Below are positions 1-10,923 of a DNA stretch of 11,259 nt, one piece after another. The notes beneath the pieces are model-generated. The model saw nothing but the letters and a program-made list of their open reading frames with translations. It ran no database searches and had not been told where the DNA came from. Source of the stretch: a virus (taxonomy: Duplodnaviria; Heunggongvirae; Uroviricota; Caudoviricetes). The stretch lies in IMG/VR virus record IMGVR_UViG_648276652_000017; one strand, given 5' to 3'. The position numbers and the translations under genes are program-made. Position 1 is the stretch's first letter. Each line of letters begins with the position of its first letter.

Positions 1-1862
1 TCACCATGATTAATATAGGTAAACTGCGCATTCGCCGTTCCACTTCCGCTGGATGTTGTCGGTGTGGTTATGCGGATCGTCATCGCTGACTTTATCCCCA
101 TCACCTCAATGACAGCGCCGGCGAGATGAATATTTCCGCAGCCCGTATCCGTGATGATTTTATTATTACCGTAAGACCAGGAGCCCTTGCACATCCAGTA
201 TGGGTGGTTAAATGCGCCCTGAGAATCCAGCCACCCGATAAACTGTGCGGTCGTCCAGTCTCCTGTCGTTGTGCTTACGGCCCCACCGAAGGCACGGCAG
301 GCACCAATATTTTTCGTAAAGGTGTCTTTGTCGGGGACATCCGCACCGTTCTTATCTTTCTGCAGTCGTTTCTCAGCATTCTCACAGGCGGCTTTTACGG
401 CCTTTGGTGTTGCCGCCAGTGACTCGGACGTGCTGTTGGTCGCACTGCTGAGCTGGACTATCCCCTTTTTCGTCGTGCTCGCATCCTCAAGCGCCACGGC
501 AGACGCAATATCCTCCGCCCGTTTTGCCGCAGTCTCAGCGCGCGTTGCCGCGGATTCTGCCGTGCTTTTGCTCTGTGCTGCCGCTGTCGCACTGCCAGCT
601 GCCTCTGTCGCCTTCGCGGATGCCGTCGTGGCACTGCCCTGCGCCTCTGACGCCAGCCTTGCCGCCTCATCTTTTGAAGCTGACGCCGATGATGCTGATG
701 ACGCCGCCGAACTGGCGGACGATACGGCTGCCGTTTTTGAGGATTCTGCGCTGGTTTCCGACGCTTTCGCGTTCGTCTCGGATGTCCTCGCAGCGGAAGC
801 AGACCTCGCTGCTGCAGTGGCCTGTTCAGTGGCTTCGCCAGCCTTCGTTGTGGCTGCTGAAGCGGACGATGCGGCGCTTTCTGCCGATTTTCCGGCGGCG
901 GTGGCACTGGCTGAGGCCTCCTCCGCTTTAACTGACGCCTCACGGGACGATGATGCAGCGGCAGTTTCTGAGCCTGCTGCTGCGGAGGCACTCTGTTCCG
1001 CTGCCGTTTCAGAAGACCTGGCGTTCGTCTCAGACGTCTTTGCCGCCTTCGCGGAATTTCCTGCCGCCGTTGCCGAGGAAGCTGCGCTACCGGCGCTCGA
1101 GGCTGCGCTCGTTTCTGATGATTTTGCAGCCTCTTTTGAGGCCGCCGCATCCCTGGCTGACGTGGCAGCTTCTGACGCTTTCGAGGTCGCGGTGGATGCA
1201 GACGTGGCGGCTGATTGTTGTGACGCTGCCGCATTCGTTTCTGACGTTTTCGCGGCACCGGCACTGGTGGCCGCCGCGCTTTTTGAGGACTCTGCAGCGG
1301 CAGCACTTTTTGATGCCTCAGCGGCCTTTGCTGAGGCTGTTTCTGCGCCGGAAGATGCTTCCTGTGCTGACGTCGCAGCCTGTCCGGCGGACGTGCTGGC
1401 GGCGCGTGCTGAGCCTGCAGCATCAGTCGCATGGGTTGCCGCCTCACGGGCAGATGTTCCGGCATCGCCGGCGGATTTTTTCGCGGCTGCCGTGTTCTGT
1501 GCCACTGCGGACGCGTTACGCGCCACCTCTTCCACCATCAGTTCAAAACGGCGCAGAGCCTCCGGACGGGCATCATCCTCCGTCATGGCACCGAGAAAAT
1601 CATTCAGCGTACCGGGTCGGGAATCTTCATACACGGTGATGGTGCCGGCATGTGACGGCGGAAAACCGTCAACCAGCAGGATGACACCGTACTGGCCGTA
1701 CTCAACGTCCATACTGTAACGCCCGGCTTCATCCGGATTTTCTGAGGCCACCGTGTTCACCACCACCGTGGTACTGTTACGTTTTGCTTTCAGCTGAATG
1801 GTGCAGTTCTGTACCGGTTTACCTGCACCGTCTTTCAGCACGCCTGAAATCTTTACTGCCAT
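1..1862 (-). CDS. stf: Side tail fiber protein (lambda Stf/orf-401 family), 3'-partial; gene continues beyond window start
   Basis: Minus-strand ATG at 1862..1860. Hand translation begins MAVKISGVLKDGAGKPVQNCTIQLKAKRNSTTVVVNTVASE, the N-terminus I recall for lambda Stf. Centre is Ala/Ser/Thr-rich with KTSETNA-like repeats (e.g. SSETAAEQSASAAAGSETA around 960..1020). I checked by hand that this frame has no stop from 1862 down to position 3 (no TTA/CTA/TCA in plus frame 3). The plus ORFs 271..1719, 524..931, 950..1639 and minus ORF 458..1465 are out-of-frame shadows of this gene. Confidence 0.85.
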   Translation of the reverse strand, partial: MAVKISGVLKDGAGKPVQNCTIQLKAKRNSTTVVVNTVASENPDEAGRYSMDVEYGQYGVILLVDGFPPSHAGTITVYEDSRPGTLNDFLGAMTEDDARPEALRRFELMVEEVARNASAVAQNTAAAKKSAGDAGTSAREAATHATDAAGSARAASTSAGQAATSAQEASSGAETASAKAAEASKSAAAAESSKSAAATSAGAAKTSETNAAASQQSAATSASTATSKASEAATSARDAAASKEAAKSSETSAASSAGSAASSATAAGNSAKAAKTSETNARSSETAAEQSASAAAGSETAAASSSREASVKAEEASASATAAGKSAESAASSASAATTKAGEATEQATAAARSASAARTSETNAKASETSAESSKTAAVSSASSAASSASSASASKDEAARLASEAQGSATTASAKATEAAGSATAAAQSKSTAESAATRAETAAKRAEDIASAVALEDASTTKKGIVQLSSATNSTSESLAATPKAVKAACENAEKRLQKDKNGADVPDKDTFTKNIGACRAFGGAVSTTTGDWTTAQFIGWLDSQGAFNHPYWMCKGSWSYGNNKIITDTGCGNIHLAGAVIEVMGIKSAMTIRITTPTTSSGSGTANAQFTYINHG

Positions 1863-1873
1863 ATTCGTTCCAC

Positions 1874-1901
1874 AAATAAAAAAGGTGCCATTTCTGGCAC
1901 C
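1874..1901 (-). terminator. Putative intrinsic terminator between J and stf (7-bp GC-rich stem, 4-nt loop, T-tract on the minus strand)
   Basis: Plus 1884..1901 is ggtgcca-tttc-tggcacc. On the minus-strand transcript the hairpin GGUGCCA-GAAA-UGGCACC is followed directly by UUUUUUAUUU (complement of plus 1874..1883). It lies 3' of the J stop (1921..1923) and about 13 nt upstream of the stf ATG. Confidence 0.6.
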
Positions 1902-1920
1902 CGGTCTGGTTTCTGAACAT

Positions 1921-4900
1921 TCAGCTGATACTGATACCAGCTGTGGATTTCTTCATCACGACAACAAGAAGGTCACTGATACTGCTCGTTGGCGTCCAGT
2001 TATTAGCGCCATATGAAGAGACATTGAAAGTCAGGGTGACATGCCCGTGTCCTGCAGGCATATCAATGACTGATGAAAATACCCGACTGACATCCGTCGC
2101 AGGTTGGTGAAAGATTTCCTGTCCGTTCTTCAGTACCTGCAGCTTACAGGTTGAATACCAGTATGACTGTTGGTTGTTGCTGTTGAAGTTTTCATGCTTA
2201 CCACCGCGAAACAGAACGGGTGGAATCACTATCTGACGGTCAAAAGCCTGATCATCATACACAGTGACCGTTATCGTACCGCTGGCATAACTGCTGTTTC
2301 TCGGAAAGGCTTTTCCCACCGTTTTGACAATATCGCCTTCAATCTGGCTGGCAGACAGTTTTCCCAGAATCCGGCAGTTCTGGTTAATCGTGACGTTGTT
2401 GAGTGTTCCGGAGTTCGCATTTACATTACCGCTGATATCGGCATTTTTCGCCGTCAGCCGCCCGTCCGGCGTCAGGGAAAAGGCCGGAGGATTGCCGCCG
2501 CTGGTAATGGTGGGGGCCGTCAGGCGCTTCAGGAACACGTCGTTCATGAATATCTGATCGCCCTGACCAACAAACATCGGTTTTGTGTTGCCATTCGCAG
2601 GATTAACCATCGCAATCCTGTCCGCCGCCAGCAGCACCTGACTCTGCATGCCGTCAGGGGTGTTCTCAATACCGGCACCAATACCCGCGATATAAAGGCG
2701 TCCGTCCTGCATCTGCTGCAGCTTCACAGCCCACATGCTGTTCAGATTATTATTTGTATCAACCTGAACCTTCTGTATCTGCTGAATTGCCGCACTCTGG
2801 TCTTCCAGTTTCTTATTGACGGTCTGTGTGATTTCATTGCTGACATCCGTAATGGACGTCCTGATTTCAGCCAGATCAGGCGCCAGCTGACCGTTATCAA
2901 TCTGCGTCCACAGCTCCTGAGCCAGATGGGTTTTTCCTATCTCGCCTTTGAAAAAATCCAGATAGCCGGATGCATCATCACTCGGCTGACCAACAGCCTC
3001 CACGAATGCCGATTTGCCAACGGTGTTCACACTGCGGATATAAAAGTAATAATCATGGCCCGGCCTGATATTGATACTGGCGGCTATCCAGTACAGCGCC
3101 GTGCCAAGATAGCGTGCTGTGGTTTCAACCTGCCTGATATCCGCAATCCGCTTTTCCGAGAACCAGAACTCAAACTGTACCGTCGGATCATAAACCGCAA
3201 GATGCGGCGTGGCGGTTATCTGAAAATAGCCCGGCGTCAGCTCAATCCGCGACGGCGCTGCCGGTGCGGCAATCCGGAACGATACCGACGCCGGATCGCC
3301 CTGCTGCCCCCACGCATTTACTGCCCGGACTGTCAGCCTGTAGTTCCCCAGAGCCAGTTGTGTGAAGCGGTAAGTGGTTTCCGTCGTCCGGGCCGTGCTG
3401 ACCAGCCGCTCACTGCCGTCATCCGCTGCCACGGTCAGGCGAAGCATGAAACTCACGCCCTTCACCACCTTCGGCGTGTCCCAGCGGGCCAGTACCTGAT
3501 ACTCCCCGCTGTCTGCGGTGACTTCGGCAGTCAGGTGCTGCACTGCTGGCGGCGTGACACCATTCACCGTGCCGCTCTGGTCGCCGTCAAAGTGCGCCCC
3601 GTTATCCACGATAGCTTCTTTTTCCGGTACATGCTGCACGGCAGTGATGGCATACGTGCCGTCGTCGTTCTCACGGATACTCACGCAGCGGAACAGGCGC
3701 TGGCGCAGCGTCGGCAGCTTCAGCCCCCATACGCTGTATCCGGCAACGCCGTCAGGAACACGGCTCACTTTCACCTTCACGCCGTCGGTGACGGACTGAA
3801 CCTCCACGCTGACCGGATTACCACTTCCGTCAACCAGGCTTATCAGCGTGGTACCGGAGGATGGCAGCGTGATTTCACGGTCGAGCGTCAGCGTCCGGGT
3901 CTGGCTGTTTACCGCCAGCACGCGTCCGCCGGTGCGGATACCGGCATAGTCATCATCGCAGATTTCAATGACATCGCCCGGTACATGGCGAAGCCCTTCG
4001 GCACCCACGCTGAAGTCCACGGTCTGCGTTTCCAGCAGTTCTGTTTTAATCAGCCACAGCCCGGCGCGGTGTGCCTGCCCCCGGCTGGTACAGCCAAAAG
4101 CATCCATCTTCGTGACGTTACGACCGTAACGGGCAATGGCCTGCGTGTCCTCCACAAGCTCTGTCGCCGTCTCCCAGCCGTTATTCGGGTCAATCCAGTT
4201 CACCTCAACGGCATTATGGCGGTCCTTCAGGGCGCTGAAGCTGTAGCGGAACGGCGCGCCATCATCCGGCATCACCACATTACTGCGGTTATAGGTCCAC
4301 ACCTTATCCGACGGTCGGTCCTGCACGAACGTCAGCGTCTGCCCGTTCCATACCGGCATACAGCGCATCGCCGAGCAGAAATCACTGAGCACATCCCACG
4401 CCTTGCGCTGTGTGGTCAGGTACGCATTACAGGTGATGCGCGGCTCCGTGCCGCCAAAGCCGTCCGGCACTGACTGGTCGCAGTACTGGCCGATGACATA
4501 CAGCGCCCATTTGTCCACATCCGCCGCACCAAGACGTTTCCCCATGCCGTAGCGTGGATGGGTCAGCATATCCCACAGACACCAGGCCATGTTATTGCTG
4601 TATGCTGGCTTAAACGTTCCGTCCCAGATACCGCTGTATTGCCGAGTCTGCGGGTTATAGTTCGACGGCACCTGCAGAATACGCCCGCGCAGATGATAAT
4701 TACGGCTCACCTGCTGGCTGCCGAACTGCTCCGAATCCACCTGTACGCCGACCAGTGCCGTGTTCGGGTAGCACTGTTTCACATCGATGATTTCGGTGTA
4801 TGACGACCAGAGCGTTTTGTTCTGCAGCTGGTCTGTGGTGCTGTCCGGCGTCATCCTGCGCATCCGGATATTGAACGGGCGCGGCGGCAGGTTACCCACC

Positions 4901-5403
4901 ACCACCGATGCCAGATACTGCGAGGTGGTTTTGCCTTTAATGGTGATGTCTTTTTCCGTCACCCAGCCACCATTACGCTGTATCTGAACCAGCAGGCGGA
5001 CTTCCGACGGATTCCGGTCCCCCTTTGAGGTGGTTTCCACCAGTGCCTGCACACCGAAGGTAAAGCGCAGACGGTCGATGTTTGCCGACGTGATGGTCCT
5101 GGTAATCGGCGTGTCGTACTTCACTTCCGTACCCAGCACCGTCTCGGAGCCGGAGGATTCAAATCCCTCCGGCGGTGTCTGCTCCTGCTCACCGGCCCGG
5201 AACACCACCGTGACGCCGGATATATTGGTATTCCCCTCACTGTCCAGCACCGGCGTACTGTTCAGCAGCACGCTTTTTAATCCGTCCACCGGACCTTCAA
5301 CCGGCCCTTCGCTGATGGCATCGATCACACTCAGCAGCTGCGTGGACTTCAGGTTGTCCTTCGCTTCGCGCGGGGTATGCCCCTTACTGCTGCCTTTACC
5401 CAT
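1921..5403 (-). CDS. J: Tail tip attachment / host specificity protein J (central tail fiber), 1160 aa
   Basis: ORF track translation starts [54 protein letters not shown] and is collinear over most of its length with lambda J as I recall it (lambda J is 1132 aa). ATG at 5403..5401 and TGA at 1923..1921 confirmed from sequence. The C-terminal roughly 250 residues appear divergent from lambda J. Confidence 0.95.
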
Positions 5404-5463: not shown

Positions 5464-6105
5464 TCAGCGACCAATCACCACAACCTGACCACCATCCCCT
5501 TCGTCTGCCGTGCTGATCTCCTGAGAAACCACGCGTGACCCCACGCGCATTTCACCGTACAGAACCGGCAGAACATTGCCCTGGGCAACCATGTTATCCA
5601 GTGAAGAAAAATAGGTATTCTGTTTGCCGTTATCCGTTGTCTGTGTGCGGGGGGTTTTGGGTTTAGGGGCCAGCATCTGTGCAACACCGCCAAGCGTCAT
5701 ACTGGCACCGAGAGAAAACAGCAGATTACTCGCCATAATTCCTACCCCCGGCATCCATATAGCAACCGCCATAACAGCCGCCCCCAGCACAGCCTGAAAC
5801 ACACCGCCACTTTTGGCTCCTGCCAGACGCGGCACGATATGGATCACGGCACCATTTTCCAGCGGCTCATTAAGACGGGCAGACAATTCGGTTTCACCTG
5901 CATCACGCCCGGCAATGCGTACCTGGTACCAGCCGTCGCTCAGTTTCTGACGAAATGCCGGGATCTGCATGGCCAGCGCCCGGATGGCTTCGGACCCCGT
6001 TTTCACTCGAAGGTCGATGCGGCGGCCAAATCGTTGTAAATCCCCGTAAAGGCAGATGCGTGCCATGCCCGGTGACGCCAGAGGGAGTGTGTGCGTCGCT
6101 GCCAT
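5464..6105 (-). CDS. I: Tail tip assembly protein I (ubiquitin-like N-terminal domain family), 213 aa
   Basis: Translation MAATHTLPLASPGMARICLYGDLQRFGRRIDLRVKTG ... NGKQNTYFSSLDNMVAQGNVLPVLYGEMRVGSRVVSQEISTADEGDGGQVVVIGR matches lambda gpI as I recall it. Position is between K and J as in lambda. ATG at 6105..6103 confirmed. The start overlaps the 3' end of K by 103 nt in another frame, so the true start could be a downstream Met. Confidence 0.9.
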   Translation of the reverse strand: MAATHTLPLASPGMARICLYGDLQRFGRRIDLRVKTGSEAIRALAMQIPAFRQKLSDGWYQVRIAGRDAGETELSARLNEPLENGAVIHIVPRLAGAKSGGVFQAVLGAAVMAVAIWMPGVGIMASNLLFSLGASMTLGGVAQMLAPKPKTPRTQTTDNGKQNTYFSSLDNMVAQGNVLPVLYGEMRVGSRVVSQEISTADEGDGGQVVVIGR

Positions 6106-6746
6106 TTGTCGGTGTACCTCTCTCGTTTGCTCAGTTGTTCAGGAATATGGTGCAGCAGCTCGCTGTCACCACAGTAAATGGCGGCATGATTCGGCACCGA
6201 TGAACCAAAACAGCACAGCAGCACATCGCCCGGCTGCGCCGCTGACAACGGCACCTGATACAGCCCTGTGGCCTCCAGATTATCCAGATAGAGATTCTGA
6301 CCGTTACGCCACCAGTCATCCCCGCGATGAAAATCCGGCATCTCAATTCCCGCCAGATGGTAAGCGTCCCGGAACAGCGTGTAACAGTCCGTTACCCCGT
6401 GCTCAAAGCGCCGCCCGGTGAGATGCGGCACACAGCGGAATTTATGAATCGCCCCCCGGCAGACCAGCCACCACGGCAAATCACTCTGTACCTGCAGCCG
6501 CCGGTCGGCCTCACTCAGCCAGGGCAGACCACCGGGGTGGCTGTGGACCAGCGCCACAATCTCTCTCTGCATTTCTGCACTCAGCCAGTCCTCCGGCGAC
6601 ATCCGGAAATACTCCTCCGGCTCACCGGAGATATTCACGCAGGGAAAATATCTTTCCTCCTCCGGCGTTCTCACCACGAAGCCGCACGACTCCGCTGGCG
6701 CACATCGCCGGGCGTGCGCCAGAATCGCTGATTCTGTCTCTGTCAT
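6003..6746 (-). CDS. K: Tail tip assembly protein K (JAB/MPN metalloprotease-like plus NlpC/P60 peptidase-like domains), 247 aa
   Basis: Translation MTETESAILAHARRCAPAESCGFVV... contains a JAMM-like motif HSHPGGLPWLSEAD (HxH-x7-S-xx-D) and NlpC/P60-like Cys/His context (GVTDCYTLF, VPNHAAIYCGD). ATG at 6746..6744 lies 3 nt downstream of the L stop. Length is longer than the 199 aa I recall for lambda K, so the 3' end should be checked against references. Confidence 0.9.
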   Translation of the reverse strand: MTETESAILAHARRCAPAESCGFVVRTPEEERYFPCVNISGEPEEYFRMSPEDWLSAEMQREIVALVHSHPGGLPWLSEADRRLQVQSDLPWWLVCRGAIHKFRCVPHLTGRRFEHGVTDCYTLFRDAYHLAGIEMPDFHRGDDWWRNGQNLYLDNLEATGLYQVPLSAAQPGDVLLCCFGSSVPNHAAIYCGDSELLHHIPEQLSKRERYTDKWQRRTHSLWRHRAWHASAFTGIYNDLAAASTFE

Positions 6747-6751
6747 GGGAT

Positions 6752-7450
6752 TTACTGCGAAAGTTTGTTAATGGAAAGGAAGCTGCCAAAGTTGCCGACA
6801 TTATTGCGAAACTTACAGCCACTCAGGCATTTGCTGCATTTATCCTTCGTGATATCGGACGTCGGCTGGTCATATTCATCCGCGACCGCCGGACCGCTAT
6901 AACCGCACTCATCGCCGCGATAGGTCCAGGTGCAGGTGTTGGCCAGCATGATACGTCCCGGAAAAACAGCGCCATCCGTTTCAGTCGGCGTGGACAGTAC
7001 AAAAGAGGCACTGACCGCGCTCAGTTCGCTGCACTGCTCGATGCGCCAGCGGCTGATCACCTCCTGCTCCGGATCGGCTTCGCTGTTTCCGTTGACGAAG
7101 TTCACCGCATCCAGAAAGCGGGCGTAAACCTTACGCCGGACCACCGTTCCGCCGACCAGACTCTGCAGATCTTCCGCCATCCCGGTGATCATGCCGTGCA
7201 GGTTAGAGACCGTCAGTGTCGGACGGGCAGCACTGCCCTTGCCGTTCATCTCAAATCCACTCCCCTGAATGGGATAGGCCTGATACTGCCGACTCTGCCA
7301 GGTGACAGACTCACCTTTTTCGTTCTGCTCATTACAGAAAAAGTAGCGATCCCCGCCTACCTCGGTCAGGTCGATTTCCCAGAGCACCACGCTGGCCGAC
7401 TGCTCCGCACGAATGCATTCATTCAGCGTTTCCTGTTGTATGTCCTGCAT
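6752..7450 (-). CDS. L: Minor tail protein L, 232 aa
   Basis: Translation MQDIQQETLNECIRAEQSASVVLWEIDLTEVGG ... CSKCLSGCKFRNNVGNFGSFLSINKLSQ is near-identical to lambda gpL as I recall it, with the same length (232 aa). ATG at 7450..7448, TAA at 6754..6752. Confidence 0.95.
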   Translation of the reverse strand: MQDIQQETLNECIRAEQSASVVLWEIDLTEVGGDRYFFCNEQNEKGESVTWQSRQYQAYPIQGSGFEMNGKGSAARPTLTVSNLHGMITGMAEDLQSLVGGTVVRRKVYARFLDAVNFVNGNSEADPEQEVISRWRIEQCSELSAVSASFVLSTPTETDGAVFPGRIMLANTCTWTYRGDECGYSGPAVADEYDQPTSDITKDKCSKCLSGCKFRNNVGNFGSFLSINKLSQ

Positions 7451-7454
7451 CAGA

Positions 7455-7787
7455 TCACCACTTCGTCAAACTGACACGAAAAATCGGTATAGGTGATATG
7501 TTCTGTCGCTGACCACGTTCGACACACCACTCTGATTTTTCTGTTAATACCCGGCGGGCGCCAAAAAAAGATTTATAGCCTTCATGCCGGGCTAAAAATT
7601 TTTCAAATGAATCACGTTCATTCGCCTCAACTTTGAAATCACAGGTGAAAACGCGCAGAGAATGATTAAGTCCATTTGGACTTCGTTGCTCATAACCATC
7701 GCCAAATCTTACAGTTTTTATCGATGGTTTATTTTCTGTTTTCATTCCATCCTCTGGTAACCAGTGAAATTCTTCCGTATTAGCCAC
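7455..7787 (-). CDS. M: Minor tail protein M (lambda gpM family, divergent), 110 aa
   Basis: Translation contains FHWLPEDGM...[12 protein letters not shown], resembling lambda gpM (FRWKVKPGM...KVRFGDGYSQR). The start codon at 7787..7785 is GTG, not ATG, and overlaps the H stop (minus strand GTGGCTAA, with TAA at 7782..7780). Similarity to lambda M extends upstream of the internal ATG at 7745, which favours the GTG start. The gene lies in A+T-rich DNA, unlike L. Confidence 0.8.
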
Positions 7788-10700
7788 TTAACATTCCCCC
7801 ATCACGTCGCATATTTAACAGATTGCCCTGCACCCGCTGATCAACCATCCCCATAAGTGCTTTTATTGCCTGAGGGCCAATCTCTCCATTCTGGCCGTCA
7901 TTTTGAATAGTGATTTGGTATACAGGGGCATAGGTAATATCTCCGCCTCCATTACCACTTTTACTATTAATAGCTCTGACACCAAGAGAACCATCGGAAG
8001 TTCGTGTTAATGGCATAATGGCTTCCGGTCCAGCCTCACCAAAAACACCAGCCCCTTTTGCAAAAGCAAAAAATTGCGGGGAATCATAAATACCGTTCGA
8101 ATACGTGCTCAATGACGGAGACTCATAAACACCGCCCTTTGCATTCGGAATAAATTTACTAATAGCACTCCCGATAGTTCCTAAAATCCCCCCAGAAGAA
8201 CTGTTACTAATGCTGTCGAAAATCCCAGTAATTGAAGCCTTTAATGCTATTCGACTAAGATCCGAAATCACGGAAGTAGCGAAAGAACGAAAATTTGCCT
8301 TGCCTGTCGTGACAAAATCACCCAGCGCATCGGTCATCCCATCAAACATCTGAGTCGTGGTTGATTTTATCTGCTCACTGATATCCTTAGTGTCATCCAG
8401 CCAGTTATTGAATCCCTGGGAGGCACCACTAACCCAGTCTCCTGCCTGAATATCGAGCTGCTCGTTTTTCTGTCTGACAATTTCTTTTTCCCGTTCCAGA
8501 GCATCATTCAGAGCCTGCATTTTCTCTTGAAAAACATGATCTGACATTCCACGGGATTTATCTGCATAGTCACGTTCAAGTTGCAGACGCTGATTGTTAT
8601 ATCCATGTTCAATCCGCAGTAATTCCTGCTGGCGTTGCTGATTTTTATCGCCAACCCCATAACCAGCAATCTGAATATCATACCCCTGCTGACGATTATC
8701 AATCGAAGCCTGCAATGAATCACGCCATGCTGTTATTTCGGCGGATTCCTTGATTAGCCTGTTATTTTTTTCAATCGCAACATTTTTCTCCATCAACGTG
8801 GTTATTTCTTCCCGGTGTAAGAGAAGCGATTTCTGATCCTGGGTTAATTTCGATGATGGTCGTGACTCTAGGTCGGCAATCCGCTGACGCCACTTAACCA
8901 GTTCCTGTTCAGAGGAACTTAATTTAACGGTCAACTCAGCTTGTGAACTTAGTAACGCATTCTGTTGATTCAGATGATCAATCATTCGTTGGGCTGCATC
9001 ATCAGAATAATCTTTCGCCTTTGGTTGCTTTGGATCTTTATAACGCTCATTTATTTGAGCGATAAGATTATTATATTCTTCCTTTGAATACTGATTCTTT
9101 AGCTTTTCCAGTTTTGCAAGTTCACTAGCTCTCTGCTGCTCCCGGGTCTGATATTGTTTTGAAAAGGCATCTGCTCTCTGTCTGAGTTCAATTCCTTCCT
9201 GTTGTCGCTTGTTGTAATCGTTTATTGATGAATTTAGTACGTCCTGAGCAATTTTTTCTGCTTGAAGTACGCCCAATTGCTGCTTTAATCGTGCCAGCCT
9301 TTTATTTTGAGCTCCGCCATCTCCAATGCCACCTAACCCGAAAACTCCGGATCGGGTATTTTTTTCTATTTCATCAATTTGACGGAGAACATCTGAGATT
9401 TTTTGATCAAGGGAGGCCTCACGGCCAATATCCAGCATGGAATCCCATGCCCATTTTGCGGAGTCTGCGACAGCTTTCCATGCAGTCTCAAGATAACCAA
9501 GATTTTCTTTAATCTGGTTGGTGCGCTGGATCATTGAGGATGAGTATTCTTCTGTCGCAATGCGGGCGGCCTCCTGCTGGTTCCCTTCATCCTGTAGCGC
9601 CTTAATCTGGTTATAAGTCGCAAGTGTCAGAAAATGGTACTGATCATTAAGTTTTGATATGGCACTGACAGGATCCTTTGCAATTTCATTGAAGTCATTA
9701 ACCAGTTGTTCGGTTGATATTCCTGTTACTTCGCTCGTTTTTACTATCGCTGTCGTCACTTGCTCCAGCGAACTGCTCGCTACCTTTCCCGAACGCACAA
9801 GCTGATTTAATACTGCCGCCGCAGCACCAGTTGTCGAATCAGCCGCATTCCCGGCACGTTGAGCTAAATCGCCCAATTGCCCGCTGGTTGTCCCCAACTG
9901 ATTTCCGGTAAGAATAAGAGATTTATTAAATTCGTCCTGCTCCTGAGAGCCTTTATAGTAAGCCAGTCCTAAGACCCCAACGGCTGCTGCGGCCAGGGTA
10001 AAAGGATTAATTAATCCCAGCACATAAGAACCTACCCCTTTGATCGCCGGGCCAATCCCACCGAACATATCTTTTAGCTGGCCGCCCTGCTGCATTAACA
10101 CCATAAATGGCGACTGACCAGTGGACAACCCAACAACAATATCCGTCATTTGTGCAGGCAACATGCGCATAGCAAAAGCCGTTTGTTTTGCCGACATTCC
10201 GGTTTTGCTTAATTGTGATTGAGTAACCTCAAGCTCACTCCGCATAGCACGAAGTTTTCCAGAAAGCTCCTCATACATTTCAGGAGAAAGCATCCCCTTA
10301 GCTTTTGCTTCATTGAGCTGTTTCTGTTGTTCTACCAGACGATTAAAAGCAGTTCCGACAGGATCAAGTTGAGCAATCAGACGTTGCAAAGCAACAACCT
10401 GTTCATCATGCGCTTTTGCTGCTTCTCGCTCTGCCTGAGCCTCTCCGGTAAGCTCTCGCCGTGTTTCCTGTATTTTTCGGCTATAATTCTCAAACTGAGA
10501 ACCATTTATTTTCCCGGATGCAAACGCAGCATTAAGTTCATCATGCTGTTGTTCAAGATTTCTTAGCGCCGCAGCCAGAGGGTCGATCTTGTCCAGCATT
10601 CTTTGAAAGGCCTGAGCCTGCGCTTCCTGCTGGGCGGCAGCAAGTTTTCCGGCCTTCTCGGCTTCTCTCTGCGCTTGCGCAACCCCGCTCAATTCCTCTG

Positions 10701-10923
10701 TGGTTTCATTAAGTTTACGGACAAGAAATTCATATTCTTCTTTATCAATAAGCCCTTTATCGAAAAATTTCTTTAATTCAGAATAGCGTCGACCGACAGT
10801 ATCAATTGCGGCACCAACTGGATCAATAGCTGCTTTTAATTTTGCGAGCGCGTTCTTCTCATCTTCTGTTGCCTTAGTCACTTTCCCTGCGCTATTTGCA
10901 GCAGTTTCCCCAGCCTGCGTCAT
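7780..10923 (-). CDS. H: Tail length tape measure protein (lambda gpH family), at least 1047 aa; 5' end probably displaced by the IS2 insertion
   Basis: Contains [41 protein letters not shown] (compare lambda [41 protein letters not shown]) and the C-terminal [16 protein letters not shown]...RRDGGMLSG block (compare lambda ...NNDGTNGQIGPAALKAV...MRDGGLFSG). Long coiled-coil-like, Q/E/K-rich centre. The reading frame stays open upstream of the ATG at 10923 up to and into the IS2 end, with no in-frame ATG/GTG/TTG and no Shine-Dalgarno before 10923. Confidence 0.9.

What the first reader, a model, noticed from the sequence alone, without database searches (positions are those of the whole stretch)
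1..480. Side tail fiber switches to a distinct Cys-containing distal domain after the conserved collar motif
After the conserved segment KKGIVQLSSATNSTSESLAATPKAVK (found in lambda-type side tail fibers), the protein continues AACENAEKRLQKDKNGADVPDKDTFTKNIGACRAFGGAVSTTTGDWTTAQFIGWLDSQGAFNHPYWMCKGSWSYGNNKIITDTGCGNIHLAGAVIEVMG…. This is unlike the lambda Stf continuation as I recall it and contains several Cys residues. It suggests a swapped receptor-binding tip, a known hotspot for host-range exchange. The gene is cut by the window edge, so the domain and any downstream tfa-like chaperone are incomplete.
Basis: partly seen in the sequence, partly recalled or inferred. Interest (0 to 1): 0.4.

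Follow-up and report, generated by a model that had tools for sequence, protein, structure and literature searches.

The report
Lambda-type side fibre with P2/Mu-type distal half
This is an ordinary, widespread mosaic prophage side tail fibre gene: a lambda-type front half joined to the well-known distal module of phages P2, Mu and P1.

Summary
The reading is correct. On the minus strand, window 1862..1 encodes the first 620 codons of a side tail fibre (Stf) gene directly after J, cut by the window edge. It follows lambda Stf up to ...ATPKAVK and K-12 Rac StfR up to ...NGADVPDK, then diverges from both.

The continuation is not new. It is about 80% identical to the P2 tail fibre H, 78% to P1 Sv', and matches the solved Mu S' fibre (PDB 8JU3, E 8.5e-128). 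The same lambda-shaft/cassette junction is in 661 of 5,426 complete E. coli genomes and in isolated lambdoid phages. An engineered lambda-P2 Stf chimera of the same design works (Brödel 2024).

The visible segment (aa 513-620) is most of a roughly 125-aa cassette. It sits at variable internal positions in 423 protein-cluster representatives and is followed by at least four different continuations. Only two of its four cysteines are conserved. So the distal half is swapped relative to lambda, but the specificity-determining tip and the chaperone gene lie beyond position 1.

In the relatives that are 99-100% identical, the tip is of the P1 S/Mu S/P2 H type and the chaperone of the P2 G/P1 U type. 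No invertase sites or DGR-like repeats were found. Low interest; already known.

The parts
1..1862 (-). 5' 620 codons of the side tail fibre gene stf (ATG at 1862..1860). The open frame runs off the window at position 1. About 241 codons are missing if it matches the 861-aa relatives.
   Evidence: Translation. 99.2% nt identity to the 861-aa ORF in NZ_CP076272; 100% over the last 330 nt to NZ_CP047277.
1461..1862 (-). N-terminal domain (aa 1-134), Pfam PF08400 'Prophage tail fibre N-terminal'. This is the lambda-Stf-type part that anchors the fibre to the tail.
   Evidence: Pfam E 2e-73, profile covered 1-134/134. 84% identity to lambda orf-401 over aa 1-326.
498..1460 (-). Ala/Ser/Thr-rich shaft (aa 135-455; 38% Ala, 23% Ser) built of degenerate repeats with start-to-start spacings that are all multiples of 3 nt, many of them multiples of 21 nt. 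It is longer than lambda's.
   Evidence: Composition; direct-repeat families; alignment to lambda orf-401.
357..479 (-). Similarity to lambda ends at aa 490.
   Evidence: Pfam E 2.7e-19; coordinates; lambda alignment ends after ATPKAVK.
327..392 (-). Linker AACENAEKRLQKDKNGADVPDK (aa 491-512). It is shared with K-12 Rac StfR, P2 H and Mu S/S'. Similarity to StfR-type fibres ends here, making this a second, nested junction.
   Evidence: StfR alignment, 86% through ...NGADIPDK, then divergence. Phages Turner/ev099/2H10/mEp332 match only to query positions 1570-1573, corresponding to window ~328-331. P2 H alignment.
3..326 (-). Conserved Trp/Cys cassette (aa 513-620 visible, about 513-637 in full-length relatives) of the P2 H / Mu S' / P1 Sv' type. 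Conserved Cys are at aa 558 (window 189-191) and aa 575 (138-140). It is truncated 17 codons before its 3' junction (...PGWRRDYNxxNKP).
   Evidence: tblastn: P2 80%, P1 Sv' 78%, Mu-like 73%. PDB 8JU3 E 8.5e-128 and the only fold match of the model. phrog_21834. No Pfam family. Alignment A1 invariants. 423 cluster representatives.

Best explanation
The window holds the first 620 codons of a natural mosaic side tail fibre gene of a lambdoid prophage.

Shown:
- The proximal part is lambda-Stf type: a PF08400 attachment domain, an Ala/Ser-rich shaft, and one PF03406 repeat.
- After the conserved repeat and linker (ATPKAVK...NAEKRLQKDxNGADxPxK), the gene carries the distal module known from the P2 tail fibre H, Mu S' and P1 S'.
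- The visible part of that module (aa 513-620) is a strongly conserved cassette of about 125 aa. It occurs internally in many otherwise different fibres and is followed by different tips.

Inferred:
- The cassette is a structural or trimer-organising knob of the fibre, or at most a generic accessory binding domain. It is not the host-range determinant.
- The specificity-determining tip and the fibre-assembly chaperone gene (tfa) lie beyond window position 1.
- By analogy with the 99-100% identical relatives, the missing part is about 241 codons: the last 17 codons of the cassette, a gp37_C-like domain, and a tip whose last 75 aa are 60% identical to the P1 S tip. A tfa of the P2 G/P1 U type (67-77% identity) would follow.
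- Such a fibre would trimerise with help from its Tfa, hang from the lambda-type tail tip, and speed adsorption by reversible binding to LPS, as the engineered lambda-P2 Stf chimera does.
- The mosaic most likely arose by homologous recombination at the conserved repeat/linker sequences. These act as shared splice points between modules.
For: - Reading frame and motifs.
- Lambda-type front half: PF08400; 84% identity to lambda orf-401 up to ATPKAVK; position right after J in an intact H-M-L-K-I-J tail module.
- Switch of module: no similarity to lambda orf-314; StfR similarity stops at NGADIPDK.
- Identity of the distal module:
  - P2 H, 55% over 520 aa and 80% over the 131-aa visible distal segment.
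  - P1 Sv' 78% and Mu-like S 73%.
  - PDB 8JU3 (Mu S/S') E 8.5e-128 over aa 495-732. It is the only significant fold match of an AF2 model of the segment (TMq 0.65, E 1.7e-14).
- Cassette is internal and portable:
  - The same cassette at 90% aa identity is followed by a lambda/T4-type HxH tip plus lambda-type Tfa in phages PhiR68_2 and PhiR29_1.
  - It is followed by a P2 H-like continuation in L001/L006.
  - Further continuations appear in P0003, P0008, P0011 and P0031.
  - There are 423 representatives, with the cassette at positions from residue 1 to about 1700 and sometimes in two copies.
- Different receptors for fibres sharing the cassette: P2 H part binds K-12 LPS (PMC11338833); P1 S' needs O-antigen (bioRxiv 10.1101/2022.07.24.501295).
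- Chaperone in relatives: Pfam Caudo_TAP; 67% identity to P2 G, 77% to P1 U, 30% to lambda Tfa.
- Tip in relatives: 60% identity to the P1 S C-terminus; Mu S 5YVQ E 4e-26.
- Functional precedent: the lambda(1-393)-P2 H(251-end) chimera improves delivery.
- Commonness: the junction-spanning query is covered at >=80% in 661 of 5,426 complete E. coli genomes; the cassette DNA is in 713 of 5,426.
Against: - The tip and tfa are outside the window, so the tip type of this particular prophage is an inference. Relatives about 90% identical carry a lambda-type tip instead.
- No complete genome in the collection holds the whole window at >99%, so the true downstream sequence is unknown.
- The structural, non-specificity role of the cassette is inferred from conservation and context, not from a binding experiment.
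- The AF2 monomer model is of only moderate confidence (pLDDT 66.6).
- PGAP flags the relatives' gene as a pseudogene 'missing C-terminus', although the ORF is open through 861 codons.
- The receptor (LPS) is extrapolated from P2/P1/Mu literature.
Confidence: 0.85

Rival explanations
1. The visible Cys-containing segment is itself the swapped receptor-binding tip that sets host range.
For: It begins exactly where similarity to lambda and to Rac StfR stops. It lies in the variable (Sv') part of P1 S' and Mu S'. It has conserved aromatic residues (W, W, F, H, Y, W) that could line a sugar-binding site.
Against: About 241 further residues follow it in the nearest relatives. The same cassette is joined to unrelated tips and chaperones. 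It is 60-95% conserved among fibres with different receptors. It is internal in most of 423 representatives. Tip-chaperone pairing maps specificity to the extreme C-terminus (5YVQ complex; engineered chimeras carrying the C-terminal host-range-determining region with its cognate chaperone, PMC9942202).
Confidence: 0.08
2. The fibre in this particular prophage continues, after the cassette, with the lambda/T4 gp37-type His-rich tip and a lambda-type Tfa, as in phages PhiR29_1 and PhiR68_2, rather than the P2 H/Mu S-type tip.
For: Isolated phages with the same lambda shaft plus cassette have that continuation. The window stops 17 codons before the junction, so it cannot decide.
Against: Those phages are only about 90% identical in nucleotides over the visible gene and 89-92% in protein over the cassette. 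The genomes 99-100% identical over the visible part (L001, L006) both continue with the P2 H-like part.
Confidence: 0.2
3. The gene is part of a programmed variability system, either an invertible G/C-segment-like switch or a DGR, that alternates the distal fibre part.
For: The homologous module in P1 and Mu lies inside an invertible segment. Some lambdoid relatives carry a PinQ/PinR-type invertase next to tfa.
Against: No cix/gix-like crossover site is found in the window, L006 or L007, while the same pattern finds both cix sites in P1. There are no inverted repeats in window 1-2000. There are no direct or inverted repeats >=20 nt around the distal stf/tfa of L006. In L001/L006 tfa is followed directly by host genes, with no invertase and no reverse transcriptase.
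Confidence: 0.03
4. The gene is a decaying remnant of a defective prophage with no function.
For: PGAP marks the relatives' copies as pseudogenes. One relative sits at the Rac site, where K-12 carries a cryptic prophage.
Against: There are 620 uninterrupted codons here, and 861 in relatives. The whole tail module H-M-L-K-I-J is open in the window. The pseudogene flag contradicts the open frame and looks like an annotation artefact.
Confidence: 0.1

Closest known systems
Engineered lambda-P2 STF chimera (Brödel et al. 2024, Nature; PMC11338833)
   Same: Lambda Stf N-terminal part (aa 1-393, just past ATPKAVK) fused to the C-terminal part of P2 H (aa 251-end). It is functional on lambda particles and targets K-12 LPS. 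The design matches the gene here: lambda-type front, with a junction in the conserved repeat/linker.
   Different: This gene is natural. Its shaft is about 90 aa longer than lambda's. In relatives, similarity to P2 H falls off after about aa 725, and the tip and chaperone are closer to P1 S/U.
Phage P2 tail fibre protein H with chaperone G
   Same: 80% identity over the 131-aa visible distal segment and 55% over 520 aa of the full-length relative, aligned through the cassette and the following domain. Relatives' Tfa is 67% identical to P2 G.
   Different: P2 H has a myovirus baseplate-attachment N-terminus and several PF03406 repeats. This gene has the lambda PF08400 N-terminus and Ala/Ser shaft.
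Phage Mu S' (gp52) fibre, PDB 8JU3, and P1 Sv'
   Same: The cassette plus the next domain match 8JU3 residues 178-417 (E 8.5e-128). The AF2 model of the window segment matches only 8JU3. P1 Sv' is 78% identical.
   Different: In Mu and P1 the module sits in an invertible segment with an invertase and crossover sites; none are present here. The extreme tip of the relatives resembles Mu S/P1 S rather than S'.
Ur-lambda Stf (orf-401 + orf-314) with Tfa
   Same: N-terminal domain, shaft and PF03406 repeat (84% identity over aa 1-326, similar up to ATPKAVK). Same gene position after J.
   Different: Lambda continues with a T4 gp37-like tip that binds OmpC (receptor as stated in PMC11338833) and has a lambda-type Tfa. 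There is no similarity to orf-314, and the relatives' Tfa is only 30% identical. Lambda has lom between J and stf; this window does not.
E. coli K-12 Rac prophage StfR / TfaR
   Same: Same front half and linker, up to NAEKRLQKDQNGADIPDK (86%). One close relative occupies the same chromosomal site next to uspF-ompN. StfR contains a 52%-identical copy of the domain that follows the cassette (aa 815-896).
   Different: StfR lacks the Trp/Cys cassette, is 1,120 aa long, and ends in the lambda-type His-rich tip with TfaR and pinR.
Side tail fibres of isolated lambdoid phages PhiR29_1, PhiR68_2, PhiR42_1, mEp460_ev081 and Salmonella phage SPF_0923
   Same: About 90% nt identity over the whole visible gene, including the lambda-shaft/cassette junction. 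Cassette 89-92% aa identity.
   Different: In PhiR29_1 and PhiR68_2, the two checked, the fibre switches after ...PGWRRDYNSRNKP to a lambda/T4-type tip with lambda-type Tfa. Some have a second PF03406 repeat and a lom gene.

Membership tests
Lambda-type side tail fibre (Stf) | N-terminal 'prophage tail fibre N-terminal' domain (Pfam PF08400) | tested here: met
   E 2e-73, full profile coverage, aa 1-134.
Lambda-type side tail fibre (Stf) | Gene lies just downstream of J in a lambdoid tail module | tested here: met
   H, M, L, K, I, J, then stf, all on the minus strand, with a 58-nt J-stf gap. Relatives are annotated the same way.
Lambda-type side tail fibre (Stf) | Ala/Ser-rich shaft and PF03406 repeat homologous to lambda orf-401 | tested here: met
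   84% identity over 326 aa, with similarity through ATPKAVK. PF03406 E 2.7e-19.
Lambda-type side tail fibre (Stf) | Lambda/T4 gp37-like distal half (orf-314, His-rich tip, Collar domain) with lambda-type Tfa | tested here: not met
   No significant similarity of the distal part of the full-length relative (which includes the window's segment) to orf-314. The relatives' Tfa is 30% identical to lambda Tfa. The true tip of this copy is outside the window.
P2 H / Mu S' / P1 S' distal fibre module | Sequence and fold similarity of the cassette after the NGADIPxK linker | tested here: met
   80% to P2 H, 78% to P1 Sv'. 8JU3 E 8.5e-128. Fold match TMq 0.65.
P2 H / Mu S' / P1 S' distal fibre module | Cognate Caudo_TAP chaperone (G/U/U' type) encoded immediately downstream | not testable with these tools
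   The downstream DNA is outside the window. In the 99-100% identical relatives a 176-aa PF02413 protein follows, 67% identical to P2 G and 77% to P1 U.
P2 H / Mu S / P1 S whole tail fibre proteins (myovirus fibres) | Myovirus baseplate-attachment N-terminal region | tested here: not met
   The P2 H N-terminal 220 aa have no counterpart; alignment starts at the PF03406 repeats. The N-terminus here is PF08400.
Invertible host-range switch (Mu G segment / P1 C segment / Pin systems) | Serine invertase plus paired inverted crossover sites flanking alternative fibre ends | tested here: not met
   No cix/gix-like sites in the window, L006 or L007, with a positive control in P1. No inverted repeats. 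No invertase gene in the window or after tfa in L001/L006.
Diversity-generating retroelement target | Reverse transcriptase and a TR/VR repeat pair at the 3' end of the target gene | tested here: not met
   All large window ORFs are tail genes. No direct repeats >=20 nt in L006 3800-6200. The source's own downstream DNA is unseen.

The most novel reading that the evidence does not exclude
The conserved Trp/Cys cassette (aa 513-637) may be more than a passive structural knob. It could be a second, generic glycan-binding site, for example for a conserved LPS inner-core or ECA epitope, stabilised by the C558/C575 pair. Many unrelated fibres (lambda-, P2-, Mu-, P1- and T4-type) would then carry it upstream of their variable tips, giving two-point binding. 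Alternatively, the unseen end of this particular copy could carry a tip type not yet joined to this cassette.
Probability: 0.1. Interest if true: 0.35.

Novelty: already known. Interest (0 to 1): 0.1.

Why it matters
It matters little as a discovery. Exchange of distal tail-fibre modules among lambda, P2, Mu, P1 and T4 has been documented since about 1990 (works cited in PMC3945230). This exact junction is present in about 12% of complete E. coli genomes.

It has three practical uses:
- It is a natural counterpart of the engineered lambda-P2 Stf chimeras used for DNA delivery, and it shows which splice points nature uses: ATPKAVK, NGADxPxK and PGWRRDYNxxNKP.
- It shows that the Cys/Trp cassette is an internal adaptor. 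Host-range prediction from fibre sequences should not treat it as the specificity region.
- It exposes an annotation artefact: intact genes of this type are flagged as pseudogenes in RefSeq.

Tried and rejected
- Locating the source genome. A whole-window megablast against complete E. coli genomes gave a best place with 94% coverage at 96.8% identity. The true downstream sequence could not be read, so relatives L001 and L006 were used instead.
- The search for homologous proteins with the distal segment returned only fragments of <=242 aa. These were good enough for an alignment but not for full architectures. The exhaustive representative search filled that gap.
- The AF2 monomer model of aa 482-620 reached only pLDDT 66.6 / pTM 0.58. 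It matched 8JU3 and nothing else in the PDB, so no independent fold assignment (lectin or other) is possible. The Cys-Cys distance could not be checked because model coordinates are not exposed.
- Pfam and NCBIfam give no family for the cassette. Only PHROGs families do.
- Invertase crossover sites and DGR-like repeats were searched for and not found. A by-eye comparison of the DNA encoding FTKNIGA with the Mu gix site recalled from memory gave about 12 of 27 matches, with the right half-site absent. I do not regard it as a relic site.
- The 8JU3 paper (Mori et al. 2024, Virology 593:110017; reference seen) and North & Davidson 2021 are not held in the library. No domain-level description of 8JU3 could be cited.
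- Phage loci were not exported to the Python sandbox, so module mapping was done with the pairwise and alignment tools instead.
Full report
**What is in the window**

All large genes are on the minus strand and form a lambdoid tail module:
- tape measure, 10923..7780
- M, 7787..7455
- L, 7450..6752
- K, 6746..6003
- I, 6105..5464
- J, 5403..1921

After a 58-nt gap, a gene starts with ATG at 1862 and stays open for 620 codons until it runs off the window at position 1. The finding's coordinates 1-480 cover the 3' end of this visible part.

- KKGIVQLSSATNSTSESLAATPKAVK is aa 465-490, window 393-470.
- It is followed by AACENAEKRLQKDKNGADVPDK (aa 491-512, window 327-392).
- Then comes DTFTKNIGACRAF...FTYINHG (aa 513-620, window 3-326).
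- Cys residues lie at aa 493, 522, 558 and 575.

**The front half is lambda Stf**

- Pfam finds PF08400 'prophage tail fibre N-terminal' over aa 1-134 (E 2e-73).
- The protein is 84% identical to lambda orf-401 over aa 1-326. It aligns again, across a longer Ala/Ser-rich shaft, up to ...ATPKAVK. There lambda reads VVMDETNRK and this protein reads AACENAEKR.
- The shaft (aa 135-455) is 38% Ala and 23% Ser. It is made of degenerate repeats with spacings that are multiples of 3 nt, many of them multiples of 21 nt.

**The continuation is neither lambda's nor K-12 Rac's**

- The distal part of the full-length relative, which includes the window's segment, has no significant similarity to lambda orf-314, the distal Stf half.
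- K-12 StfR matches at 86% through NAEKRLQKDQNGADIPDK and then diverges.
- Several lambdoid phages (Turner, ev099, 2H10, mEp332) likewise match only down to window ~328-331.
- There are therefore two nested junctions, after ATPKAVK and after NGADxPDK.

**What the continuation is**

- A tblastn of the last 131 aa against phage genomes finds 126 records. Lambdoid phages PhiR68_2, PhiR29, PhiR42_1 and mEp460_ev081 and Salmonella phage SPF_0923 match at 89-92%. P2 and P2-like Yersinia/Escherichia phages match at 80-82%, the P1 Sv' segment at 78%, and Mu-like phages at 73%. Vibrio, Aeromonas and Shewanella phages also match.
- Against P2 H, the full-length relative aligns over 520 aa at 55%.
- The PDB holds a solved structure of this module: 8JU3, the Mu S/S' fibre (E 8.5e-128, covering aa 495-732 of the relative).
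- An AF2 model of window aa 482-620 (pLDDT 66.6) matches 8JU3 (E 1.7e-14, TMq 0.65) and nothing else in the PDB.
- Pfam and NCBIfam have no family for the cassette. PHROGs does, with phrog_21834 covering aa 489-620 exactly.

**What lies beyond the window, judged from relatives**

No complete E. coli genome in the collection carries the entire window at >99% identity. The stf part is 99.2% identical to NZ_CP076272 (L001) and 100% identical over the last 330 nt to NZ_CP047277 (L006). In both relatives:
- The ORF is 861 aa.
- The cassette ends at ...PGWRRDYNTKNKP (about aa 637).
- Next comes a gp37_C-like domain (PF12604, aa 643-718).
- Then comes a tip whose last 75 aa are 60% identical to the P1 S C-terminus and which matches the Mu S fibre of the solved fibre-chaperone complex 5YVQ (E 4e-26).
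- A 176-aa Caudo_TAP gene follows. It is 67% identical to P2 G, 77% to P1 U, 50% to P1 U' and only 30% to lambda Tfa or TfaR.
- Host genes come directly after it: uspF-ompN (the Rac site) in L001 and tRNA-Ser/hyaA in L006.

**The cassette is internal and portable, not the tip**

- Phages PhiR68_2 and PhiR29_1 have the same lambda shaft and the same cassette (90% identity). After ...PGWRRDYNSRNKP they switch to a lambda/T4 gp37-type His-rich tip ending NIAFNYIVRLA, with a lambda-type Tfa. PhiR68_2 also carries a PinQ/PinR-type recombinase.
- Database fragments show further continuations (P0003, P0008, P0011, P0031). They also show different upstream contexts, of Mu S type and T4-like type.
- An exhaustive HMMER search finds the cassette in 423 cluster representatives (313 at E<=1e-10). 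Among the 150 listed, the proteins are 82-2,352 aa long, the cassette sits anywhere from the N-terminus to residue ~1,700, and it is sometimes present in two copies.
- Across 30 homologues the core is nearly invariant: W, T, W, L, F, H, Y, W, C558 and I are invariant, and C575 nearly so. The Cys at aa 493 and 522 vary.
- Fibres sharing the cassette use different receptors. The P2 H part targets K-12 LPS (PMC11338833). [quoted passage not shown]
- Engineering work places the host-range-determining region at the C-terminal region of the fibre, supplied together with its cognate chaperone (PMC9942202).
- I therefore infer that the visible domain is a structural or organising knob, or at most an accessory binding domain. 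The host-range determinant of this fibre is not in the window.

**How common and how known**

- The cassette DNA occurs in 713 of 5,426 complete E. coli genomes.
- A query spanning the lambda shaft end, the repeat and the cassette is covered at >=80% in 661 genomes.
- The mosaic relationship of lambda, P2, Mu, P1 and T4 fibre genes is classical (Montag 1989 and Haggård-Ljungquist 1992, as cited in PMC3945230).
- Brödel et al. built the same design artificially, lambda Stf 1-393 fused to P2 H 251-end, and showed that it works.

**Programmed variability**

- A cix/gix-type pattern finds both cix sites in P1 but nothing in the window, L006 or L007.
- There are no inverted repeats in window 1-2000.
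- There are no repeats >=20 nt around the distal stf/tfa region of L006.
- No invertase or reverse transcriptase gene is present in the window or after tfa in L001/L006.

**Verdict**

The distal half is swapped relative to lambda and K-12 Rac, but the flagged segment is a conserved internal cassette of the known P2 H/Mu S'/P1 S' module, not a distinctive receptor-binding tip.
- This is a common, already documented kind of tail-fibre mosaic.
- The main uncertainty is which tip this particular copy carries. I put about 0.75 on the P2 H/P1 S type with a G/U-type chaperone.

Noticed in passing
window 1883-1902 (minus strand), within the J-stf gap 1863-1920: A terminator-like hairpin, GGGTGCCAGAAATGGCACCT followed by TTTTTATTTG, sits between the J stop and the stf start. 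There is no lom gene here, unlike lambda and phages PhiR68_2 and PhiR29_1. Relatives L001 and L006 also lack lom.
   Followed up: partly
window 1921-5403 (minus strand), especially the last ~130 codons (about 1921-2310): J is 1,160 aa. Its last 300 aa are only 55% identical to lambda J, and most differences lie after GDIVK in the receptor-binding end. The central fibre therefore probably does not use LamB in the lambda manner. The receptor was not investigated.
   Followed up: partly
window 271-1719 (+), 458-1465 (-), 524-931 (+), 950-1639 (+): Long ORFs (up to 482 aa) overlap the Ala/Ser-rich stf shaft in other frames and on the opposite strand. They look like by-products of the GC-rich repeat codons rather than genes. 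Lambda's annotated orf206b lies in the equivalent place.
   Followed up: no
L001 6039-7601 and L006 2469-4031 (relatives of window 1-1862): RefSeq/PGAP annotates the intact 861-codon stf as a pseudogene, 'incomplete; missing C-terminus', ending near the cassette. The frame is in fact open to the stop just before tfa. This is a likely annotation artefact of the mosaic architecture.
   Followed up: partly
P0082, P0083, P0084 (hits): Some fibre proteins carry two copies of the Trp/Cys cassette (two matched stretches), so the cassette can be repeated within one fibre.
   Followed up: no
L001 (next to uspF-ompN-nifJ) versus L006 (next to tRNA-Ser and hyaA): Near-identical stf-tfa ends lie at the right-hand edge of prophages integrated at two different chromosomal sites, one of them the K-12 Rac site.
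   Followed up: no
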